Below, piece by piece: positions 19,496 through 43,768 of a DNA stretch of 46,447 nt (positions are counted from its first letter, which is position 1; every line of letters starts with the position of its first letter). The stretch is taken from NCBI GenBank assembly GCA_048938895.1, contig JBHLLU010000032.1:1-46447 (forward strand), read 5' to 3'. Source of the DNA: Promethearchaeota archaeon. Its GTDB lineage: Archaea; Asgardarchaeota; Lokiarchaeia; Sigyniarchaeales; SOKP01. A model generated the notes under the pieces. The model made no database searches. It was not told where the DNA came from and saw only the letters and a program-made list of their open reading frames with translations. Both the position numbers and the translations under genes were made by a program.

Positions 19496-21631
19496 ATGTC
19501 ACAGGTTTACCTTAAGAAAACTATTTTATCTTGTATTATTCTTCTTATACTTTTACCAATAACAGGCTTATCCTTTAACTTTCTATCTACTAGATTTGAA
19601 ATATCAAAGTCTATGGAATTGAATGCATCTGCCAATGGATATACTAATGTTGATTTATCAATCATTCCTGAAATTGATTATGATACTTTGAATGATACGT
19701 GGTATAACGCCAAAATAGAAATGTTAATTATTACCCCAAATGACATTAATTATATTGACGCTGTAAAACCCCTGATGGAATGGAAAAATGAAAAAGGAGT
19801 AAAAACCATAACTTTAAGCAATTTTACATTATATGATGGCATAGATGATGCCGAGCGTATAAGAACAATGATAAAATCATACTATGAAAAGGAGAATATT
19901 CAATGGGTTTTATTAGCAGGGGATGCACAAAATGATATTCTCCCTATTAGAAACGTATATAATCCTGATGTAGTACGATGGGGTGGTGGAAGAACTGAAA
20001 CGGTTGGCGGTGAGTATTACAAACCTACAGATTTTTATTACGCAGATCTTACAAGCACTTGGGATAATGATGGTGTTGGAAATAATGGTGACGGAAAGTG
20101 GGGGGAAGCTCCAAAAGATACAGACCATGGATTAGATGAAATTTCATGGATTCCCGAAGTGTATGTGGGAAGGCTACCTGCTAATAATGCTAATGAGCTT
20201 GAGAGTATGATAAATAAGACTTTAATGTATGAAACCAACCCAAGTGAAGGAGATTGGATGAATCGAATGTTGTTAGCGGGGGGTGTATCAAGTTATAGCG
20301 TTTCTGGGGATGATACAGGAGAATATGAAAGCGATCTTACAAATTATATAATCCAGAACTATGCAAAGTCAGTCATTAATTATACCCATCTTATAAAAGA
20401 AACAGGAAATCTTTCTCATTCTACTCTTAATACGAATTTCAATAGCGGATATTCAGCTGTTATTATGGCGGGTCATGGAGCTCCAACACGATTTTATATA
20501 GATCCTTCTACTATAGGCTATACAGATGTAGATGCTACTTCCTCCTCTAATTCTTATATGCCCTCATTAGTATATCTTGATGCTTGTACTATGTCAAGTT
20601 TTGACATAAACGATGGAAGTATCGGTGAGTTATTGATTAAAAATCAAAATGCGGGTGCAATAGGGGTAATTGGTGCCATAAGAGTTAGTTGGTATTTCGA
20701 AGATGATAATAATCTTGAGAAATTAAATCGGGGGAATGCAAAGCTCTTTTGGAAGGAATTTTATGAAAATAGAAAATTTCAACAAGGAAGAGCTTTATAC
20801 GATTCTAAAGTATCCTATATCAATAGTGATTATTACACTAAAGGTCCAGGGTCGACAAATTATGATTTTGAGCGTAAAAACCTATTAACCTATAATCTTT
20901 TAGGAGATCCAGAAGTTGATATTTATACTAATATACCAAAAAAGGCATCAGACCCTTTTACTGAAATGAATTATGAAGGAGGTTTTGTTACTGTAACCAT
21001 CAAGGATAATAAAGATTCAATAATCCCATATGCTAGAGTCCATTTCCGAACTTCTGATGGCAAATATTTTACTACATATGCAGATATTAATGGTGTGGTT
21101 AAATTCAGATTACCCAAACAAACAAATGAGTTTTATAATGTGACTATTACGGGTCATAATTTAAAACCATCCCACTTTAATTTCACAACTGAACCAGATA
21201 CCATTAAACCAGAATTAAAAAAAGTTTCTTGTTCACCTCGGAATCCTGCAACCTCAGATATAATAGGTTTCAATGTTGACCTTGAAGATGATCGTTCAGG
21301 AATTGAAAGTATATACCTCTTTATTTCGGATAATAATTTCAAGAATTATACATATTTTACTGCATCAAACGATTATTTAGAAAATGATAGTAGCTTCATA
21401 TTTAATATTGATCGCAATCTTCCTGGAAAGTATTCATATTTTCTTGTAGCGAGAGATTATGCAAATAACACTAACATTTTTTATGAACAAAATTTCAAGT
21501 TTACTATTTCAGAGCCTATTGCTAATTATATCTTTCCAATATCTCTAATTGCCGTTGTAGCTCTTGTTGGTGTTTCCATCCTATTTATTTACAGAAATAT
21601 TCAGAGATATTCACGAATGAATATCAAATAA
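19496..21631 (+). CDS. Peptidase C25 (gingipain-like) family, secreted and C-terminally anchored
   Basis: N-terminal hydrophobic signal; WVLLAGD, TDFYYADL, VGRLP, AGHG (His), LDAC (Cys), YNLLGDP; C-terminal TM helix. Confidence 0.9.
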   Translation: MSQVYLKKTILSCIILLILLPITGLSFNFLSTRFEISKSMELNASANGYTNVDLSIIPEIDYDTLNDTWYNAKIEMLIITPNDINYIDAVKPLMEWKNEKGVKTITLSNFTLYDGIDDAERIRTMIKSYYEKENIQWVLLAGDAQNDILPIRNVYNPDVVRWGGGRTETVGGEYYKPTDFYYADLTSTWDNDGVGNNGDGKWGEAPKDTDHGLDEISWIPEVYVGRLPANNANELESMINKTLMYETNPSEGDWMNRMLLAGGVSSYSVSGDDTGEYESDLTNYIIQNYAKSVINYTHLIKETGNLSHSTLNTNFNSGYSAVIMAGHGAPTRFYIDPSTIGYTDVDATSSSNSYMPSLVYLDACTMSSFDINDGSIGELLIKNQNAGAIGVIGAIRVSWYFEDDNNLEKLNRGNAKLFWKEFYENRKFQQGRALYDSKVSYINSDYYTKGPGSTNYDFERKNLLTYNLLGDPEVDIYTNIPKKASDPFTEMNYEGGFVTVTIKDNKDSIIPYARVHFRTSDGKYFTTYADINGVVKFRLPKQTNEFYNVTITGHNLKPSHFNFTTEPDTIKPELKKVSCSPRNPATSDIIGFNVDLEDDRSGIESIYLFISDNNFKNYTYFTASNDYLENDSSFIFNIDRNLPGKYSYFLVARDYANNTNIFYEQNFKFTISEPIANYIFPISLIAVVALVGVSILFIYRNIQRYSRMNIK

Positions 21632-21638
21632 ATTAGAA

Positions 21639-22211
21639 TTATTCACCATTTTTTGAATTTTCTTTTTGAGATACTTTAGGCTTTCTTAAATGAAGGAGAT
21701 AGGAAATTGAGCTTATGGTACTAAAGATTCCCTGTACTATAAGCGCAAAACATATTAGAAACACAGCAAGCAAATCGTTATAAATAAATAAAAATATGAT
21801 AATAAAAACTCCTGCCAGAGTAAATTTTATTATATAGGAAAGTTCACTGAATAAAATTTTCCCGATAGTTGAACTTTTTGCTCTAGATTGTAATTCATTA
21901 TAATATTGGACCTCTCCAGCTTCCTTTATATACCAACTCCCTTCAATATTATTAGCAAAAAGTAAGATACTCCACCAAAAAATAAAAAAACTAAAATAGA
22001 AATCTAAAGCACCTAAAACTATGAGAGGTGTTTGCATCAAAATCATCCCTTTCCACCTAATTCGTCTAGCCAATCTATTAGTCTCTAACCTTAATTGTTT
22101 CGAAACAAATCTCGTACTTATTAAATCGAGAGATCTCCCCATTACAGTTATAAGAGCATTTATCAGAAATTGATACCACTGAACTTCTTGAGTGATTAAT
22201 TGAAATATCAT
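21639..22211 (-). CDS. Hypothetical membrane protein
   Basis: Several hydrophobic segments; DLIST...ETN pattern. Confidence 0.7.
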   Translation of the reverse strand: MIFQLITQEVQWYQFLINALITVMGRSLDLISTRFVSKQLRLETNRLARRIRWKGMILMQTPLIVLGALDFYFSFFIFWWSILLFANNIEGSWYIKEAGEVQYYNELQSRAKSSTIGKILFSELSYIIKFTLAGVFIIIFLFIYNDLLAVFLICFALIVQGIFSTISSISYLLHLRKPKVSQKENSKNGE

Positions 22212-22330: not shown

Positions 22331-22350
22331 GAAATAACCGTACTTATTAA
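22331..22350 (+). promoter_or_regulatory. Candidate BRE/TATA promoter for the 5S-like RNA
   Basis: TTATTAA at 22344-22350, about 25 nt upstream of the start of the terminal stem (22370). Confidence 0.45.
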
Positions 22351-22369
22351 AAGGTAAACTAGTGGTCTG

Positions 22370-22579
22370 ATAACCACATAAATCCGTAGCATCTCGCTAC
22401 AGCGCTGGAACCATCCGAACCCGGAAGTTAAACTGGTTGGTGTTATAGAGAGTACTGCAATTGCTAGTTACAACTCCTTCCGTGTTGTAAGTGAAATTTG
22501 TGGGAAACTATAAACTGTAAGCTAGCTTACGGTCATGGCCTACAAGGATAATACCCGGTCTCGCTATTTATGTGGTTAT
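22370..22579. repeat. Perfect 14-bp inverted repeat enclosing the 5S-like RNA
   Basis: ATAACCACATAAAT (22370-22383) is the exact reverse complement of ATTTATGTGGTTAT (22566-22579). Confidence 0.9.
22405..22563 (+). rRNA. rrf: 5S rRNA, circularly permuted (3' part 22413-22522 precedes 5' part 22525-22563)
   Basis: 5S signatures CCGAACCCGGAAGTTAA, AGTA/GGGAAA loop E, helix V TTATAG/CTATAA, 3' end CTGTAAGC, followed by the canonical 5' end GCTTACGGTCAT...ACCCGGTCTCG. Confidence 0.85.
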
Positions 22580-22672
22580 AAGTCATAATTTCTTTTACAG
22601 ATTCTTAAAATTAACTTTTTATATCTTCCATTATAACTTATATCTATATTAAAAGGAAATGATTCGATAAAT

Positions 22673-23215
22673 ATGCCAAAAAAGTATATTGTATTTTTCA
22701 AAAGCATTGGACGAAGATGGTTCTTAATACTTGTGATCATAATTATTATTGTTGCCATTTTTAATCCAATTGCGGCGATTTGGATGGCAGGAATAACATT
22801 AGGATTATTTTTACTCTCATTTATTCCAAGACTCTTTTTCAAAAATAAACTTGAAAAATTTATGAAGAAGTTTTATAAGATTGAAGATGAGTTAATTGCT
22901 AAAAAATTAAAAAGACCTCTTAAGAAAATTAGAGAAGAGATGTTCGATTTGTCTCAAAATCAAGAGAAAAAGAAATGGTTAATTGTATTCTTAAATAAAC
23001 AGTATATTCGATACCATCAAGACACAATTGAAGCTTTTAAAGAGGTATATAATAAAGGGTATAGTGAAAAAGAGATGCTGGACGAGTTAAAAGAATTTAA
23101 GATTACAACAAGAGCTGAAATCAAGGTGATTCAAGATACTCTAATTAAACTTAAGAAGTTAAATGAGAGAGAGATATCTGTAAAGGAACACAAAGACAAA
23201 CAAAAATACGGCTAA
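22673..23215 (+). CDS. Hypothetical protein, two N-terminal TM helices and basic cytoplasmic domain
   Basis: 180-aa ORF with ATG start and a hydrophobic hairpin. Confidence 0.75.
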   Translation: MPKKYIVFFKSIGRRWFLILVIIIIIVAIFNPIAAIWMAGITLGLFLLSFIPRLFFKNKLEKFMKKFYKIEDELIAKKLKRPLKKIREEMFDLSQNQEKKKWLIVFLNKQYIRYHQDTIEAFKEVYNKGYSEKEMLDELKEFKITTRAEIKVIQDTLIKLKKLNEREISVKEHKDKQKYG

Positions 23216-41315: not shown

Positions 41316-43157
41316 ATCATCTTTGCTTTCACAGGGAAATTATTAAATATTAATCTCACTACTAAAGAGATCTCAATCGAACCACTAAACGAAAACATAG
41401 CTAAAAACTTTTTAGGGGGTGCTGGTTATGCATGCCGTTATTTATATGATAAATTGGATAGAAATACCGACCCTCTTTCCCCTGAAAATATAATAATGAT
41501 AATGACCGGTCCATTAATGGGTACTTTCGCTCCGAATACTGGTAGATGGGTTGTATGTTCAAAATCTCCTTACACAGGAATATGGGGTGAATCCAATTGT
41601 GGTAGTTGGTTTGGAGCAGAAATAAAAAAGGCAGGCTATGATGGAATAATTATTTCTGGTTCTTCAGCTACTCCAGTATACGTTGAAATCAAAGATAATA
41701 AGGTAGAGATTAAGGATGCGGAATTTTTATGGGGAAAAGGAACCTATTATACGACAAAGAAACTCAAAGAGAGGTTTGGGAACAAAAAGGTAAGAGTTGC
41801 ATGTATTGGACCAGCTGGTGAGAATCTGGTTAAATTTGCTAATATTATTTCTGAAGAAAGAGCCGCTGGAAGAACTGGAATGGGAGCAATATTTGGGGCA
41901 AAAAAATTGAAAGCAATCATCGTAATGGGTAGTAATATAAAAGTAGAAGTAGCTGAGGAAGAAAATCTACAACTAGCCATAAAAAGTTCAAGAGAAAAGG
42001 TAAAATCTGCATTAAGTACTGAAGTTCTGAAAGCATTTGGTACCTCTAGTGGATTAGATATGTATAATGCTACAGGAGAACTGGATATTAAATATTTCAC
42101 TCAGTCTAATTGGGATAAAGCATCAAACATTTCAGGGGTCACAATGGCAGAGAAAATTTTAGTAAGCAATAGATTTTGTCATTCGTGTGTTATAGGATGT
42201 GGAAGAAGAGTAGCAATCAAGAACGGTGAATATAGGACTGAGGAGATTGAAGGACCTGAATATGAAACATTGGTAAGTTATGGGAGCCTTCTTTTGAATG
42301 ATAACTTAGAATCGATAGTGCACATTAATAAGAAATGTTTTGATTATGGAATTGATACAATAAGCTCTGGAGGAGTTATTGCTTGCTTAACTTATCATTT
42401 CAGTTTAGGAAATATAAAAACCGAGGATATTGATGAAATTAAACCAGAATGGGGAAATATTAGAACTGCAGAAAAAATATTGGAGAAAATTGTTTATAGA
42501 AAAGGAATAGGGGATATTCTTGCAGAAGGATCAAATACGTTTGCAGCAAAATTTAATATATCTCAAAATGAAATTGCTACGGTAAATGGATTAGAAGTTA
42601 CATATCATGATTTAAGATCAAATTTTGGAATGGCGATTGCTTATGGAATGGGGGGCGCTCATAAAGGACCTTCACATAATCTTTGCGATATGTATTATGT
42701 TTTAATGGGGGTCCCATTGGAGGAAATTGATGCTGCTACAACTACTTTAGATATTTATGTAGATAATGAAGAAATGGTAAAAACGTGTTCAAATGTAATG
42801 GATTACAGAGCGCTCTACAGCTCAATAATTATGTGCTCTTTTTGTAATCCTTTACCTTCTCAAGTTGCTGCTTTAATCCAGTATGCTACAGGATTAAAAT
42901 TCAGTATTAGTGAGGTTAAATTATATGGAGAGCGAATATTAAATATGAAACGTTTATTCAATATTAAGATGGGATTAAGAGCTAAAGATGATACACTACC
43001 TCAAATTTTATTAAAACCTTTTTCGGAGGGTGGTTCTAAAGGAAAAAGCCCTAATTTTGAAGAAATGAAGAGAATTTTTTATAAGATTCGAGATTGGGAT
43101 TTAGTTTCAGGAAAACCAAATGAGAATAAACTTAAAGCCTTAAATATCTATCCCTAA
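41316..43157 (+). CDS. aor: Aldehyde:ferredoxin oxidoreductase family (W/Mo-pterin)
   Basis: KSPYTG, GPAGEN, GRTGMGA..G.KKLKAI, CHSCVIGC, GPEYET, GIDTIS, SHN. The conserved N-terminus (FAFTGKLLNINL...FLGGAG) lies upstream of the ORF-track start and is bounded by TGA 41307. Confidence 0.93.
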   Translation: MIFAFTGKLLNINLTTKEISIEPLNENIAKNFLGGAGYACRYLYDKLDRNTDPLSPENIIMIMTGPLMGTFAPNTGRWVVCSKSPYTGIWGESNCGSWFGAEIKKAGYDGIIISGSSATPVYVEIKDNKVEIKDAEFLWGKGTYYTTKKLKERFGNKKVRVACIGPAGENLVKFANIISEERAAGRTGMGAIFGAKKLKAIIVMGSNIKVEVAEEENLQLAIKSSREKVKSALSTEVLKAFGTSSGLDMYNATGELDIKYFTQSNWDKASNISGVTMAEKILVSNRFCHSCVIGCGRRVAIKNGEYRTEEIEGPEYETLVSYGSLLLNDNLESIVHINKKCFDYGIDTISSGGVIACLTYHFSLGNIKTEDIDEIKPEWGNIRTAEKILEKIVYRKGIGDILAEGSNTFAAKFNISQNEIATVNGLEVTYHDLRSNFGMAIAYGMGGAHKGPSHNLCDMYYVLMGVPLEEIDAATTTLDIYVDNEEMVKTCSNVMDYRALYSSIIMCSFCNPLPSQVAALIQYATGLKFSISEVKLYGERILNMKRLFNIKMGLRAKDDTLPQILLKPFSEGGSKGKSPNFEEMKRIFYKIRDWDLVSGKPNENKLKALNIYP

Positions 43158-43215
43158 TAGATATTCATTTTTGAGGAAGAGTGTTCGCATAAATTCTTGA
43201 ATGCCTTGTTTTTGC

Positions 43216-43233
43216 AATTCGAAGCTTCGAATT
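43216..43233. repeat. Perfect 18-bp palindrome
   Basis: AATTCGAAGCTTCGAATT between the convergent aor and GTPase genes. Confidence 0.8.
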
Positions 43234-43768
43234 AAAAAACTTCTAAAACCTTATTCTTGTAGATAAGTCTTGTTAGAAGATCAAATATTTTTTGGACATT
43301 TTCTCCTGTTCTGGAGCTACACTCGACAAAGCCATCAGCTTTTTTCATATTTGCAATTTCCATTGCTTTTCTTGTTGATATTTCTTTAAGATGGATTAAA
43401 TCCGTCTTTCCGCCAACAAAAATAATAGGTAACTCATAATCAATCTCTTTTTCAACAATTTCAAACCACTCATCTACGTGAGCAAGTGAACCATAATTTG
43501 TAATATCATACATAAAAATGGCTCCATTAGCACCCCTGATGTAAGAAGGGAATAAGAATCTAAATCTTTCTTCTCCAGCAAAATCCCATATTTGGAGCTT
43601 TATATGATCTCCTTTCATTTCAACTGTTTTAAGCATAAAATCAACTCCTAGCGTCATTTGAATATCCTCTTTAAAAAGGTTGGTTAAATATCTGTGAGTA
43701 AGAGTAGTCTTTCCTGTTTGCGAATCTCCAAAAATAACTATTTTAAACGTGAAATCTGTTTCCGACAA
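43232..43768 (-). CDS. Rab/Ras-like small GTPase
   Basis: GDSQTGKT, TLGVDF, WDFAGEERF, GGKTD, CSS; TTG 43768 chosen by alignment to the neighbouring paralog. Confidence 0.93.
   Translation of the reverse strand: MSETDFTFKIVIFGDSQTGKTTLTHRYLTNLFKEDIQMTLGVDFMLKTVEMKGDHIKLQIWDFAGEERFRFLFPSYIRGANGAIFMYDITNYGSLAHVDEWFEIVEKEIDYELPIIFVGGKTDLIHLKEISTRKAMEIANMKKADGFVECSSRTGENVQKIFDLLTRLIYKNKVLEVF

What the first reader, a model, noticed from the sequence alone, without database searches (positions are those of the whole stretch)
22370..22579. Circularly permuted 5S rRNA gene enclosed in a perfect 14-bp stem
Seen: the 3' two-thirds of a 5S rRNA (ATCCGAACCCGGAAGTTAA...AGTA...GGGAAACTATAAACTGTAAGC, 22413-22522) comes first. 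After a 2-nt linker (TA) comes the canonical 5' third (GCTTACGGTCATGGCC...ACCCGGTCTCG, 22525-22563). CTGTAAGC pairs fully with GCTTACGG (one G-U), so helix I, which normally carries the free ends, becomes a closed hairpin. Joining 22563 to 22413 gives CCCGGTCTCG|ATCCGAACCCGG, a normal-length helix III/loop C. The new ends are held by AGCG/CGCT (22401-04/22562-65), a side hairpin (22386-22400) and the 14-bp stem 22370-83/22566-79, with a TATA-like box upstream. Inference: the precursor yields either a permuted linear 5S or, after cutting and ligation in loop C, a circular 5S, by analogy with permuted tRNA genes and circular archaeal pre-rRNAs. I know of no described genomically permuted 5S gene, and standard scanners would probably call only a partial hit. 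I cannot see a clean bulge-helix-bulge, so the processing enzyme is unknown.
Basis: partly seen in the sequence, partly recalled or inferred. Interest (0 to 1): 0.95.

Follow-up and report, generated by a model that had tools for sequence, protein, structure and literature searches.

The report
Permuted, intron-bearing 5S rRNA gene
This Asgard archaeon's only 5S ribosomal RNA gene is written back to front and interrupted, and its flanks form the cutting signal of the tRNA-splicing enzyme, so the finished 5S RNA is most likely a closed circle, an arrangement shared by most Asgard lineages sampled.

Summary
Window 22370-22579 holds the genome's only 5S-like gene, in the order 3' two-thirds, closed helix I, 5' third.

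- outer AGCG/CGCU
- central CUGG/CCGG
- 3-nt bulges AAC and UCU

Cutting after the second bulge base joins 22560 to 22411. This restores loop C exactly as it stands uninterrupted in relatives whose genes break elsewhere. A second, strict BHB marks a 30-nt intron in loop D (22467-22496), so the predicted product is a 120-nt circle.

A sequence profile of ordinary 5S genes scores 21 bits on the native order, 36 re-ordered and 47 re-ordered and spliced.

In one 151-genome sample of the phylum, 87 genomes (18 families) carry the permuted core and 48 (6 families) a canonical 5S. At least four break points occur, and the outer helices differ between lineages while still pairing.

The genome encodes two EndA subunits and RtcB.

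No RNA data could be examined, so circularity is inferred. Five full-text searches found no report of a BHB-processed permuted 5S gene. The closest precedent is the circular permuted SRP RNA of Thermoproteus.

The parts
22344..22355 (+). TATA-like box (CTTATTAAAAGG) about 25 nt upstream of the processing stem; probable archaeal promoter
   Evidence: Read. A CTTATATAA-type box sits at the same distance in same-genus loci. Promoter function is inferred.
22370..22383 (+). 5' arm of the 14-bp outer processing stem (leader)
   Evidence: Perfect complement of 22566-22579. Predicted in the leader+trailer cofold and in the native fold.
22386..22400 (+). Side hairpin in the discarded leader (stem GUAGC/GCUAC)
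   Evidence: Conserved in nearly all family f1 loci. A hairpin at the same place occurs in families f10 and f18. Role unknown.
22401..22404 (+). Outer helix of the terminal BHB, 5' strand (AGCG), pairs with 22562-22565
22405..22408 (+). Central 4-bp helix of the terminal BHB, 5' strand (CUGG), pairs with 22555-22558; discarded with the leader
   Evidence: Covaries with its partner across loci: U-G 19, C-G 12 and U-A 11 of the 43 cleanly anchored rows, and no C-A.
22409..22411 (+). 3-nt bulge AAC; predicted EndA cut between 22410 and 22411
   Evidence: Geometry. The cut rule was calibrated on the genome's own tRNA-Ser(GGA) intron.
22411..22560 (+). Predicted excised and end-joined RNA (150 nt before intron removal): permuted 5S rRNA
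   Evidence: Re-ordered, it matches the canonical 5S profile full length (35.8 bits).
22412..22519 (+). 3' two-thirds of 5S (loop C 3' half, helix III 3' strand, helix II 3' strand, helices V/IV, loop E)
   Evidence: nhmmer profile positions 36-114. Covariation of helices II, IV and V.
22467..22496 (+). 30-nt BHB intron in loop D. Outer helix 22455-60/22498-503, central UUGC 22461-64 / GUGA 22491-94, bulges UAG 22465-67 and AAU 22495-97, inner helix 22468-74/22484-90.
   Evidence: Strict hBHBh' found by script. Removing it gives the loop D length of intron-less relatives and raises the profile score to 47.4 bits.
22515..22532 (+). Helix I closed into a hairpin: 7 bp (22515-21/22526-32) capped by tetraloop CUAG (22522-25)
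   Evidence: pairs with compensatory changes; loop census.
22527..22560 (+). 5' third of 5S (helix I 5' strand, helix II 5' strand, loop B, helix III 5' strand, first bases of loop C)
   Evidence: nhmmer profile positions 3-29 at 22527-22555. The extension to 22560 follows from the BHB cut.
22555..22558 (+). Central helix of the terminal BHB, 3' strand (CCGG); also the 5' strand of helix III in the mature RNA
22559..22561 (+). 3-nt bulge UCU; predicted EndA cut between 22560 and 22561
22562..22565 (+). Outer helix of the terminal BHB, 3' strand (CGCU)
22566..22579 (+). 3' arm of the 14-bp outer processing stem (trailer)
22590..22596 (+). T-rich run (TTCTTTT), possible transcription stop
   Evidence: Read; inferred only.

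Best explanation
Window 22370-22579 is the organism's single functional 5S rRNA gene, encoded as a circular permutation and interrupted by an intron.

Proposed pathway:
1. The primary transcript runs from about 22372 to about 22596.
2. Its leader and trailer pair into a long stem that ends in a bulge-helix-bulge motif.
3. The heterotetrameric tRNA splicing endonuclease (two EndA subunits are encoded in the genome) cuts after the second base of each 3-nt bulge, at 22410|22411 and 22560|22561.
4. RtcB joins the new ends. This closes loop C and yields a covalently closed 5S RNA in which helix I is capped by a tetraloop.
5. The same enzymes remove a 30-nt intron from loop D (22467-22496), leaving a 120-nt circle that enters the ribosome.

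What is shown:
- the gene order and the BHB geometry
- covariation of the BHB helices
- restoration of canonical sequence across several break points
- the lack of any other 5S gene
- the presence of the enzymes' genes

What is inferred: transcription, cleavage, ligation, and that the circle is the final form.
For: 1. **Sole 5S gene.** RF00001 finds nothing over its cut-off in the 98.7%-complete genome. Both permuted-core models hit once.

2. **Permutation.** The canonical-5S profile scores:
   - native order: 21.2 and -1.0 bits, the two pieces in reversed order
   - re-ordered: 35.8 bits
   - re-ordered and spliced: 47.4 bits, full length

3. **BHB.**
   - The leader+trailer cofold gives exactly stem, AGCG/CGCU, 3-nt bulge, CUGG/CCGG.
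   - At the register fixed by homology alone, a strict motif (4-bp central helix, at least 3 abutting outer bp) is present in 47 of 56 loci. Three of the nine misses were script mis-anchorings that passed.
   - The same test at displaced registers passes 150 of 144256 times.
   - A further 9 of 14 loci from 12 more families pass.

4. **Cut rule.** The genome's own tRNA-Ser(GGA) intron gives a 7-nt anticodon loop only if each bulge is cut after its second base.

5. **Several break points, one product.**
   - Variant A breaks in loop C (22 loci); variant B breaks after helix III (24 loci).
   - In the 20 same-genus loci, the predicted junction of each variant reproduces the stretch that is contiguous in the other in 18 of 20.
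   - A third break in loop B (family f3) restores the Rfam consensus spacing.
   - f8-type lineages break one base away from variant B.

6. **Covariation.**
   - Outer helices differ completely between families yet stay paired for 8-15 bp.
   - 20 of 28 core pairs show compensatory changes in native order.

7. **Controls.** 10 canonical 5S genes of family f2 have no conserved processing stem or BHB.

8. **Enzymes.**
   - Two EndA paralogues of 202 and 200 aa, 30% identical, plus RtcB. That the second paralogue lacks the catalytic His is my reading of the alignment against a recalled catalytic triad, not a test.
   - Asgard EndA is reported as the broad-specificity (alpha-beta)2 type (PMC5829648, passages).

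9. **Closed helix I is tolerated.** An engineered E. coli 5S with its native ends joined by a 4-nt connector works (PMC7283268, passages).

10. **Helix I cap.** The cap is UUCG in 20 of the 40 loci whose 4-5-nt cap the script resolved (56 examined). It is also UUCG in deep lineages, while the stem below it covaries.

11. **Precedent.** The permuted SRP RNA of Thermoproteus is circularised at a leader-trailer BHB (PMC4731332, passages).
Against:
- The unconstrained MFE of the full precursor does not contain the BHB pairs: -67.2 kcal/mol against -64.4 with them enforced.
- The circular MFE of the 150-nt product is not the textbook 5S fold and is no better than shuffles, z = -0.95.
- The inner (product-side) helix of the terminal BHB is absent, so the motif is the relaxed hBH form.
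- Strict geometry fails in some loci:
  - a central-helix mismatch in L049, L196, L197 and L199
  - only 2 abutting outer bp in L057
  - no abutting outer helix in f4 (L096, L097)
  - 2 unpaired bases and odd bulges in f6 (L098, L099)
  - a side hairpin between outer stem and central helix in f10 and f18
- RF00001 could not be run on the re-ordered sequence, because the tool takes stored sequence only. nhmmer was used instead.
- Related genomes are not independent samples.
Confidence: 0.78

Rival explanations
1. The BHB is cut and the ends ligated, but the circle is only an intermediate. A second nuclease opens the helix I cap and the ribosome receives a linear, canonical-order 5S rRNA, as happens with permuted tRNA genes.
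For: - Permuted tRNA genes mature through a circular intermediate that is then re-opened (cited in PMC4267664).
- Archaeal 16S and 23S circles were long thought to be re-linearised (PMC12918454, passages).
- One relative carries a 31-nt insertion in the helix I cap (L051), which could be a spacer.
Against: - The cap is a 4-nt loop, mostly UUCG, UUAG or UUUG, directly closing a 7-bp covarying stem.
- No BHB, tRNA-like element or spacer is present there.
- Hyperstable UNCG-type caps (property recalled) look like structural caps, not processing sites.
- A 4-nt connector across the native ends is functional in E. coli.
Confidence: 0.12
2. The transcript is trimmed but never ligated. The ribosome holds a linear permuted 5S whose ends lie in loop C, as in brown-algal mitochondrial 5S rRNA.
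For: - Linear permuted 5S exists in stramenopile mitochondria (PMC4267664).
- E. coli tolerated 5S opened at loop C or D when tethered to 23S.
Against: - Break points fall at different conserved sites (loop C, after helix III, loop B). Each time the BHB-predicted cuts restore the uninterrupted canonical sequence to the base. Selection for trimming alone does not explain that.
- The flanks form the specific substrate of an enzyme whose products RtcB ligates (passages).
- The algal case moves the ends to the three-way junction and has no such flanks.
Confidence: 0.06
3. The locus is a pseudogene or an assembly artefact (collapsed tandem copies), and the real 5S gene is missing from the assembly.
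For: The genome is a 174-contig draft. rRNA genes are often unassembled in such bins.
Against: - The same layout is the only 5S-like locus in closed single-contig relatives: G006 and G023 in the same genus, G158 and G168.
- In the class sample, 113 of 126 family genomes match the permuted-core model at 81-110 bits.
- Stems show compensatory changes, which pseudogenes do not maintain.
- The only two 'canonical' hits in the family (G076, G094) have a GUGAAA-type motif instead of GUUAAG and lie in stretches of 37% G+C, against 28-31% for typical family loci. That GUGAAA marks bacterial 5S is recalled.
Confidence: 0.02

Closest known systems
Circular, genomically permuted SRP RNA of Thermoproteus (Plagens et al. 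2015, eLife; PMC4731332, passages read)
   Same: - A universal structured ncRNA gene encoded 3' part first.
- Leader and trailer fold into a BHB.
- A heterotetrameric, relaxed-specificity EndA cuts it and RtcB is proposed to ligate.
- The circle is the functional form.
- The host has very many tRNA introns; here ARAGORN calls an intron in 13 of 24 tRNAs found.
   Different: - A different RNA: 5S rRNA, a ribosome component.
- Found across 21 families of a phylum rather than one genus.
- Several break points and additional BHB introns inside the gene.
- Circularity was shown experimentally there and is only inferred here.
Circularly permuted tRNA genes (Soma et al. 2007, as cited in PMC4267664; archaeal cases recalled, not read)
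   Same: The 3' half is upstream of the 5' half. Termini are processed at a BHB to a circular RNA.
   Different: tRNA circles are re-opened at the acceptor ends by RNase P and tRNase Z. Here no such signal is visible at the helix I cap.
Circular or permuted 23S rRNA in archaeal ribosomes (PMC12918454, passages; Pyrococcus furiosus PMC7758197 and Thermococcus preprint, listing and abstract, plus passages)
   Same: A BHB in a processing stem, EndA/RtcB circularisation, and a circular rRNA retained in ribosomes.
   Different: Those genes are in normal order, and the circle joins the natural ends. PMC12918454 states that 5S rRNA processing does not involve circularisation in the cultures studied.
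Permuted mitochondrial 5S rRNA of brown algae and other stramenopiles (Valach et al. 2014, PMC4267664, passages)
   Same: The 5S helix I is replaced by a closed hairpin, and the gene is missed or under-scored by standard models.
   Different: - The ends move only to the three-way junction.
- The product is linear and permuted.
- There is no BHB, no ligation and no splicing endonuclease.
- Organellar, not archaeal.
Low-abundance circular forms of ordinary 5S rRNA in Sulfolobus and Halobacterium (PMC3326292; PMC12558985)
   Same: Covalently closed 5S-derived RNAs exist in archaea.
   Different: They come from normal-order genes, have heterogeneous junctions and no BHB, and their authors interpret them as processing or degradation intermediates.
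Engineered circularly permuted 5S (23S-cp5S) in E. coli (Huang et al. 2020, PMC7283268, passages)
   Same: Native ends are joined by a 4-nt connector, with new ends in loop C or D. This shows that a capped helix I is compatible with function.
   Different: Synthetic, tethered into 23S rRNA, and not circular.

Membership tests
5S rRNA (Rfam RF00001) | Score at or above the curated gathering threshold (38 bits) on the gene as encoded | tested here: not met
   18.4 bits, E 0.39, forced through a 37-nt insertion. This is expected for a permuted gene.
5S rRNA (Rfam RF00001) | Full-length colinear similarity to canonical 5S after in-silico processing | tested here: met
   nhmmer with a profile of 9 canonical sister-family genes: 47.4 bits over profile positions 3-116 after re-ordering and intron removal, against 21.2 bits native. 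cmscan on the processed sequence could not be run.
5S rRNA (Rfam RF00001) | Helices I, II, IV and V around a three-way junction, supported by covariation | tested here: met
   RNAalifold on 45 native-order cores predicts helices II, V, IV and a helix I hairpin. 20 of 28 pairs have compensatory changes.
5S rRNA (Rfam RF00001) | It is the cell's 5S (no other copy) | tested here: met
   - No other match in the own genome.
- None over the cut-off in 10 other genomes with permuted loci, one of them a single closed contig, nor in 5 further genomes including closed G168.
Substrates of the archaeal tRNA splicing endonuclease (BHB motif) | Central helix of exactly 4 bp | tested here: met
   CUGG 22405-08 with CCGG 22555-58 (one G-U). 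Covaries across loci.
Substrates of the archaeal tRNA splicing endonuclease (BHB motif) | Two 3-nt bulges on opposite strands, each 3' of the central helix strand | tested here: inconclusive
   The trailer-side UCU is a true 3-nt bulge between two helices. The leader-side AAC is followed by no inner helix, so the motif is the relaxed hBH (bulge-helix-loop) form. The internal intron has both bulges closed, a strict hBHBh'.
Substrates of the archaeal tRNA splicing endonuclease (BHB motif) | Flanking helix of at least 2 Watson-Crick bp on the discarded side | tested here: met
   AGCG/CGCU, followed by the side hairpin and the 14-bp stem. Definition from PMC7714728, passages.
Substrates of the archaeal tRNA splicing endonuclease (BHB motif) | Actual cleavage by EndA and ligation by RtcB | not testable with these tools
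   Only the genes were found: EndA alpha-like and beta-like subunits and RtcB.
Permuted ncRNA genes matured through circularisation (tRNA, SRP RNA) | 3' part encoded upstream of the 5' part, with the natural ends linked | tested here: met
   Helix I is capped by CUAG.
Permuted ncRNA genes matured through circularisation (tRNA, SRP RNA) | Predicted cuts restore the uninterrupted RNA | tested here: met
   The junction equals the contiguous sequence in relatives with another break point, 18 of 20 in the genus. The same holds for the loop B break and the f8-type break.
Permuted ncRNA genes matured through circularisation (tRNA, SRP RNA) | Circular RNA detected (junction reads, RNase R resistance) | not testable with these tools
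Permuted mitochondrial 5S (mtPerm-5S type) | Ends at the junction of the alpha and gamma domains; linear permuted product; no flanking processing stem | tested here: not met
   Here the ends lie in the beta domain (loop C) and are flanked by a stem plus BHB. Description of the algal type from PMC4267664.

The most novel reading that the evidence does not exclude
The ribosomes of most Asgard archaea contain a covalently closed circular 5S rRNA made by the tRNA-splicing machinery. The permuted gene is old, present in the ancestor of a large part of the phylum.

Because the product is a circle, gene order became free to drift. That would explain the several break points and the BHB introns in loops C and D. 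The canonical genes of the cultured family and a few other families would then be retentions or reversions.
Probability: 0.5. Interest if true: 0.95.

Novelty: new variant of a known kind. Interest (0 to 1): 0.9.

Why it matters
- **A third circular ribosomal RNA, and a required one.** 5S rRNA is regarded as a linear, autonomous molecule in all cellular ribosomes. A circular 5S that can only be made by EndA and RtcB would be the first case where gene order makes circularisation obligatory for a ribosomal RNA.
- **Missing 5S calls in Asgard genomes.** Standard annotation finds no 5S gene in most Asgard genomes sampled here (103 of 151). If permuted genes explain this, annotation pipelines and completeness checks that count 5S genes would need a permuted model.
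- **Why it went unseen.** The family f2, which has canonical 5S genes, contains closed genomes whose sizes fit the cultured Asgard strains as I recall them. This identification was not verified. If right, it explains why experiments have not met the permuted form.
- **Directly testable.** Existing metatranscriptomes, or recombinant enzymes with a synthetic substrate, would settle it.

Tried and rejected
This could not be run, because search_rna_families accepts only the window or stored loci. I used nhmmer with a profile of 9 canonical sister-family genes instead.
- **Thermodynamic folding.** It was of little use. The full precursor MFE lacks the BHB pairs by 2.8 kcal/mol. The circular MFE of the product is not the 5S fold, z = -0.95.
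- **Unrestricted BHB search.** In AT-rich flanks it gives about 10 chance candidates per locus. I therefore tested only the register fixed by homology and measured the background at displaced registers.
  - One search found nothing because of a too-narrow regex. Searches were similar. They were corrected.
  - mis-anchored L047, L055, L058 and L096.
  - resolved the local helix I cap in only 40 of 56 loci. The rest were read by eye.
- **BHB flanks on canonical genes.** I considered whether the canonical 5S genes of family f2 also carry BHB flanks, which would make circular 5S general. They do not: 10 loci gave only inconsistent AT-rich chance matches.
- **Canonical hits inside the family.** I considered whether G076 and G094 disprove the pattern. 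They look like bacterial contaminant contigs.
- **Literature.**
  - 'permuted 5S' / 'circular 5S' / 'circularly permuted 5S': 3 papers, only Valach 2014 relevant.
  - 5S rRNA + BHB + circular + Asgard: 46 papers.
  - 5S rRNA + permuted + splicing endonuclease + archaea: 14 papers.
  - 5S + Odin/Loki + permut: 32 papers.
  - A six-term search: 18 papers.
  - '5S rRNA intron' phrases: 0 papers.
  - None describes a BHB-processed permuted 5S gene or a 5S intron. Subscription journals and supplements are outside these searches.
Full report
**1. The observation**

- a perfect 14-bp stem (22370-83 with 22566-79)
- a small hairpin (22386-22400)
- AGCG/CGCU (22401-04 with 22562-65)
- between them, 5S-like sequence in the order 3' part, hairpin, 5' part

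Rfam RF00001 finds nothing over threshold in the window. With relaxed thresholds it forces a full-length alignment over 22376-22523 at 18.4 bits (cut-off 38) with a 37-nt insertion. This is the only 5S-like place in the whole 4.65-Mb, 98.7%-complete genome.

I built a DNA profile from 9 canonical 5S genes of a sister family (f2). It places profile positions 36-114 at 22412-22519 and positions 3-29 at 22527-22555, which is reversed order. The permutation is therefore real.

**2. Corrections to the observation**

- Helix I is a 7-bp hairpin (22515-21 with 22526-32) capped by the tetraloop CUAG. A 2-nt loop is not sterically possible.
  - outer helix AGCG/CGCU
  - central 4-bp helix CUGG (22405-08) with CCGG (22555-58)
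  - a 3-nt bulge UCU (22559-61) on the trailer strand
  - AAC (22409-11) on the leader strand

A cofold of leader and trailer alone returns exactly this structure. The unconstrained fold of the whole precursor prefers other pairs by 2.8 kcal/mol, and I count that against the reading.

To fix the cut positions I used the genome's own tRNA-Ser(GGA) intron. Only cutting after the second base of each bulge gives a 7-nt anticodon loop. Applied here, the cuts fall at 22410|22411 and 22560|22561, and ligation joins 22560 to 22411.

**3. An intron inside the gene**

The 37-nt 'insertion' in the Rfam alignment contains a strict hBHBh' motif:
- outer helix 22455-60 with 22498-503
- central UUGC with GUGA
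- bulges UAG and AAU
- inner 7-bp helix

It defines a 30-nt intron, 22467-22496, in loop D. Removing it gives the loop D of intron-less relatives.

Profile scores rise step by step:

| Form | Bits |
|---|---|
| Native order | 21.2 |
| Re-ordered | 35.8 |
| Re-ordered and spliced | 47.4 (profile 3-116) |

The predicted final RNA is a 120-nt circle.

**4. Relatives in the same genus and family**

RF00001 results:
- None of 24 same-genus genomes reaches the cut-off (best 32 bits), while 9 of 11 genomes of family f2 score 53-69 bits.
- In an order-wide draw of 151 genomes, 12 of 14 f2 genomes but only 2 of 131 f1 genomes pass.
- Those two (G076, G094) carry a GUGAAA-type 5S on stretches of 37% G+C, against 28-31% for typical family loci. 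I take them as contaminant contigs; that this motif marks bacterial 5S is recalled.

All f1 loci that I extracted show the same permuted layout. They come in two versions:
- Variant A, which includes the window, breaks in loop C.
- Variant B breaks just after helix III.

In both versions the flanks form GCG, a 4-nt central strand and a 3-nt bulge. In 18 of 20 same-genus loci the predicted ligation product carries the identical stretch across helix III and loop C. In other words, the junction of one variant is contiguous DNA in the other.

A high-G+C relative (family f3) breaks in loop B, again with a BHB whose product matches the Rfam consensus spacing.

**5. Statistics and covariation**

The test register was fixed by homology alone. 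A strict motif means a 4-bp central helix with at least 3 abutting outer base pairs.
- The strict motif is present in 47 of 56 loci.
- Three of the nine misses (L047, L055, L058) were mis-anchored by that script and had passed.
- The same criterion at displaced registers passes 150 of 144256 times, or 0.1%.
- Loci are related, so the count overstates independence.

The sequence solutions, however, differ between lineages:
- Central pairs change as U-G, C-G and U-A, never C-A.
- Outer helices of 8-15 bp have unrelated sequences in different families.

In native order, RNAalifold on 45 cores predicts helices II, V, IV and the helix I hairpin. 20 of 28 pairs show compensatory changes.

**6. Distribution across the phylum**

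I built two covariance models of the permuted core: helix II 3' strand, helices V and IV, closed helix I, helix II 5' strand.

| Search | Sample | Result |
|---|---|---|
| R1, class | 151 genomes | 113 of 126 f1 genomes at 81-110 bits; also hits in f3, f4, f6 |
| RF00001, phylum | 151 genomes | 48 pass, in 6 families (f2, f12, f15, f17, f21, f31) |
| R2, phylum | 151 genomes (same sampling settings; the rows listed in both outputs coincide) | 89 hit; 2 are weak cross-matches on canonical genes of f21; 87 remain, in 18 families |

The two sets do not overlap otherwise.

I read loci from 21 families. All have the 3' part, a capped helix I and the 5' part.

Of 14 loci from 12 further families, the script found a strict junction-restoring BHB in 9. 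The other five have one central mismatch (L196, L197, L199) or a side hairpin between outer stem and central helix (L194, L206). Families f4 and f6 have relaxed motifs.

Ten genomes with permuted loci have no RF00001 match over the cut-off; one of them is a closed single contig of 1.42 Mb. The same holds for five further genomes, including the closed genome G168.

Ten canonical f2 genes show a TATA-like box close upstream and a T-run directly downstream, with no conserved stem or BHB.

**7. Machinery**

The genome encodes two EndA paralogues of 202 and 200 aa, both with N- and C-terminal EndA domains and 30% identical. In the alignment the second lacks the His that I recall as catalytic. It also encodes one RtcB.

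Passages of PMC5829648 state that Asgard archaea have the (alpha-beta)2 EndA with the L1 insert associated with broad substrate specificity. This suits a BHB that lacks the inner helix.

ARAGORN finds only 24 tRNAs in the genome, 13 with introns. That fits heavily interrupted tRNA genes.

Relatives found with the EndA protein are titled Promethearchaeota or Promethearchaeia, including 'Loki' bins.

**8. Circle or not**

Ligation is inferred from three things:
- Several break points each restore the canonical sequence.
- The flanks are the specific substrate of an enzyme whose products RtcB joins.
- There is a precedent: the Thermoproteus SRP RNA is a permuted gene with a leader-trailer BHB, cleaved by recombinant EndA, with circles seen by RNA-seq and northern blot (PMC4731332, passages).

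That the circle is final, and not re-opened, rests on the helix I cap:
- It is a 4-nt loop, UUCG in 20 of the 40 loci the script resolved, with UUAG and UUUG next.
- It is UUCG again in distant families, while the stem beneath it covaries.
- No processing motif sits there.

An E. coli 5S with its native ends joined by a 4-nt connector functions (PMC7283268, passages). I give 0.78 to BHB processing with a circular end product, 0.12 to re-linearisation and 0.06 to an unligated linear form.

**9. Comparison with what is known**

- Permuted 5S exists in brown-algal mitochondria, but there the ends move to the three-way junction and the product is linear (PMC4267664).
- Low-level circles of ordinary 5S are reported in Sulfolobus and Halobacterium. 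Their authors regard them as intermediates or decay products.
- Circular 23S rRNA within archaeal ribosomes has been reported, and the same paper states that 5S processing does not involve circularisation in the cultures studied (PMC12918454).
- Five full-text searches found no description of a BHB-flanked permuted 5S gene. One search found none of a 5S intron.
- Supplements were closed and subscription journals are not in the library, so 'not in print' is limited to those searches.

**10. Limits**

- Earlier scan notes were unavailable.
- Family and genus labels are anonymous handles.
- I did not build a species tree. Statements about ancestry are hypotheses.

Noticed in passing
L058, L086, L091, L100, L102, L105, L109, L111 (family f1) and L205 (family f27): A 30-nt insertion at one fixed place in loop C of the permuted 5S gene. 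By eye it has a BHB: central UCCG/CGGG, bulges AAA (or AAU, AAG) and AAC, and an inner helix that covaries between loci. Its removal restores canonical loop C. This would be a second intron site in 5S genes, present in two distant families.
   Followed up: partly
L051 (G062, family f1): A 31-nt insertion with its own GC-rich hairpin sits in the helix I cap. It may be an expansion or a third intron site. No BHB was established.
   Followed up: no
window 22386-22400; the same place in f1 loci; L187/L206 (f18); L189/L194 (f10): A small hairpin in the discarded leader, between the outer stem and the BHB, is conserved across distant families. In f18 it is flanked by a duplicated 7-nt motif, which gives two alternative BHB registers. 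Role unknown.
   Followed up: no
f1 loci: Break-point variants A and B are mixed within genera: g1, g14 and g17 hold both. All other families read have a B-like break. How a break point moves about 17 nt between close relatives is unexplained.
   Followed up: no
L100 985-1126 (G115:C109:5234-5375): A second, degenerate variant-A-like copy lies 0.7 kb downstream of a variant-B copy, with a large insertion and a decayed 5' region (34 bits with R1). It may be a pseudogene, or a trace of how break points switch.
   Followed up: no
own genome G000: ARAGORN finds only 24 tRNA genes, 13 with introns, plus an implausible 'tRNA-Pyl' with an 1828-nt intron. Many tRNA genes are probably too disrupted for the program.
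   Followed up: no
window 22603-22623 and the same place in same-genus loci: A conserved AT-rich motif (TCTAAAATTAAGTTTTTA type) lies about 40 nt downstream of the 5S stem. It is probably the promoter of the next gene (ORF 22673-23215, no Pfam match).
   Followed up: no
window 19496-21631 (+): A 711-aa protein with a Peptidase_C25 (gingipain-type) domain and a weak Ig-like domain lies upstream. The neighbours 21639-22211 (-) and 22673-23215 (+) have no Pfam family. The 5S gene is not in an rRNA operon.
   Followed up: partly
G076:C68:17163-17272 and G094:C263:6954-7076: The only canonical 5S hits in family f1 carry a GUGAAA-type motif (recalled as bacterial) and lie in stretches of higher G+C (37%). 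They are likely contaminant contigs in these bins.
   Followed up: partly
L115 (G159:C1, about 43150-43300): In family f9 the permuted 5S gene lies directly downstream of a tRNA gene; the tRNA's 3' end, with an encoded CCA, is visible in the flank.
   Followed up: no
L004 (G032), L005 (G039), L036 (G055): Canonical 5S genes of family f2 occur as tandem copies about 370 nt apart. Tandem duplication is one route by which normal and permuted orders could interconvert.
   Followed up: no
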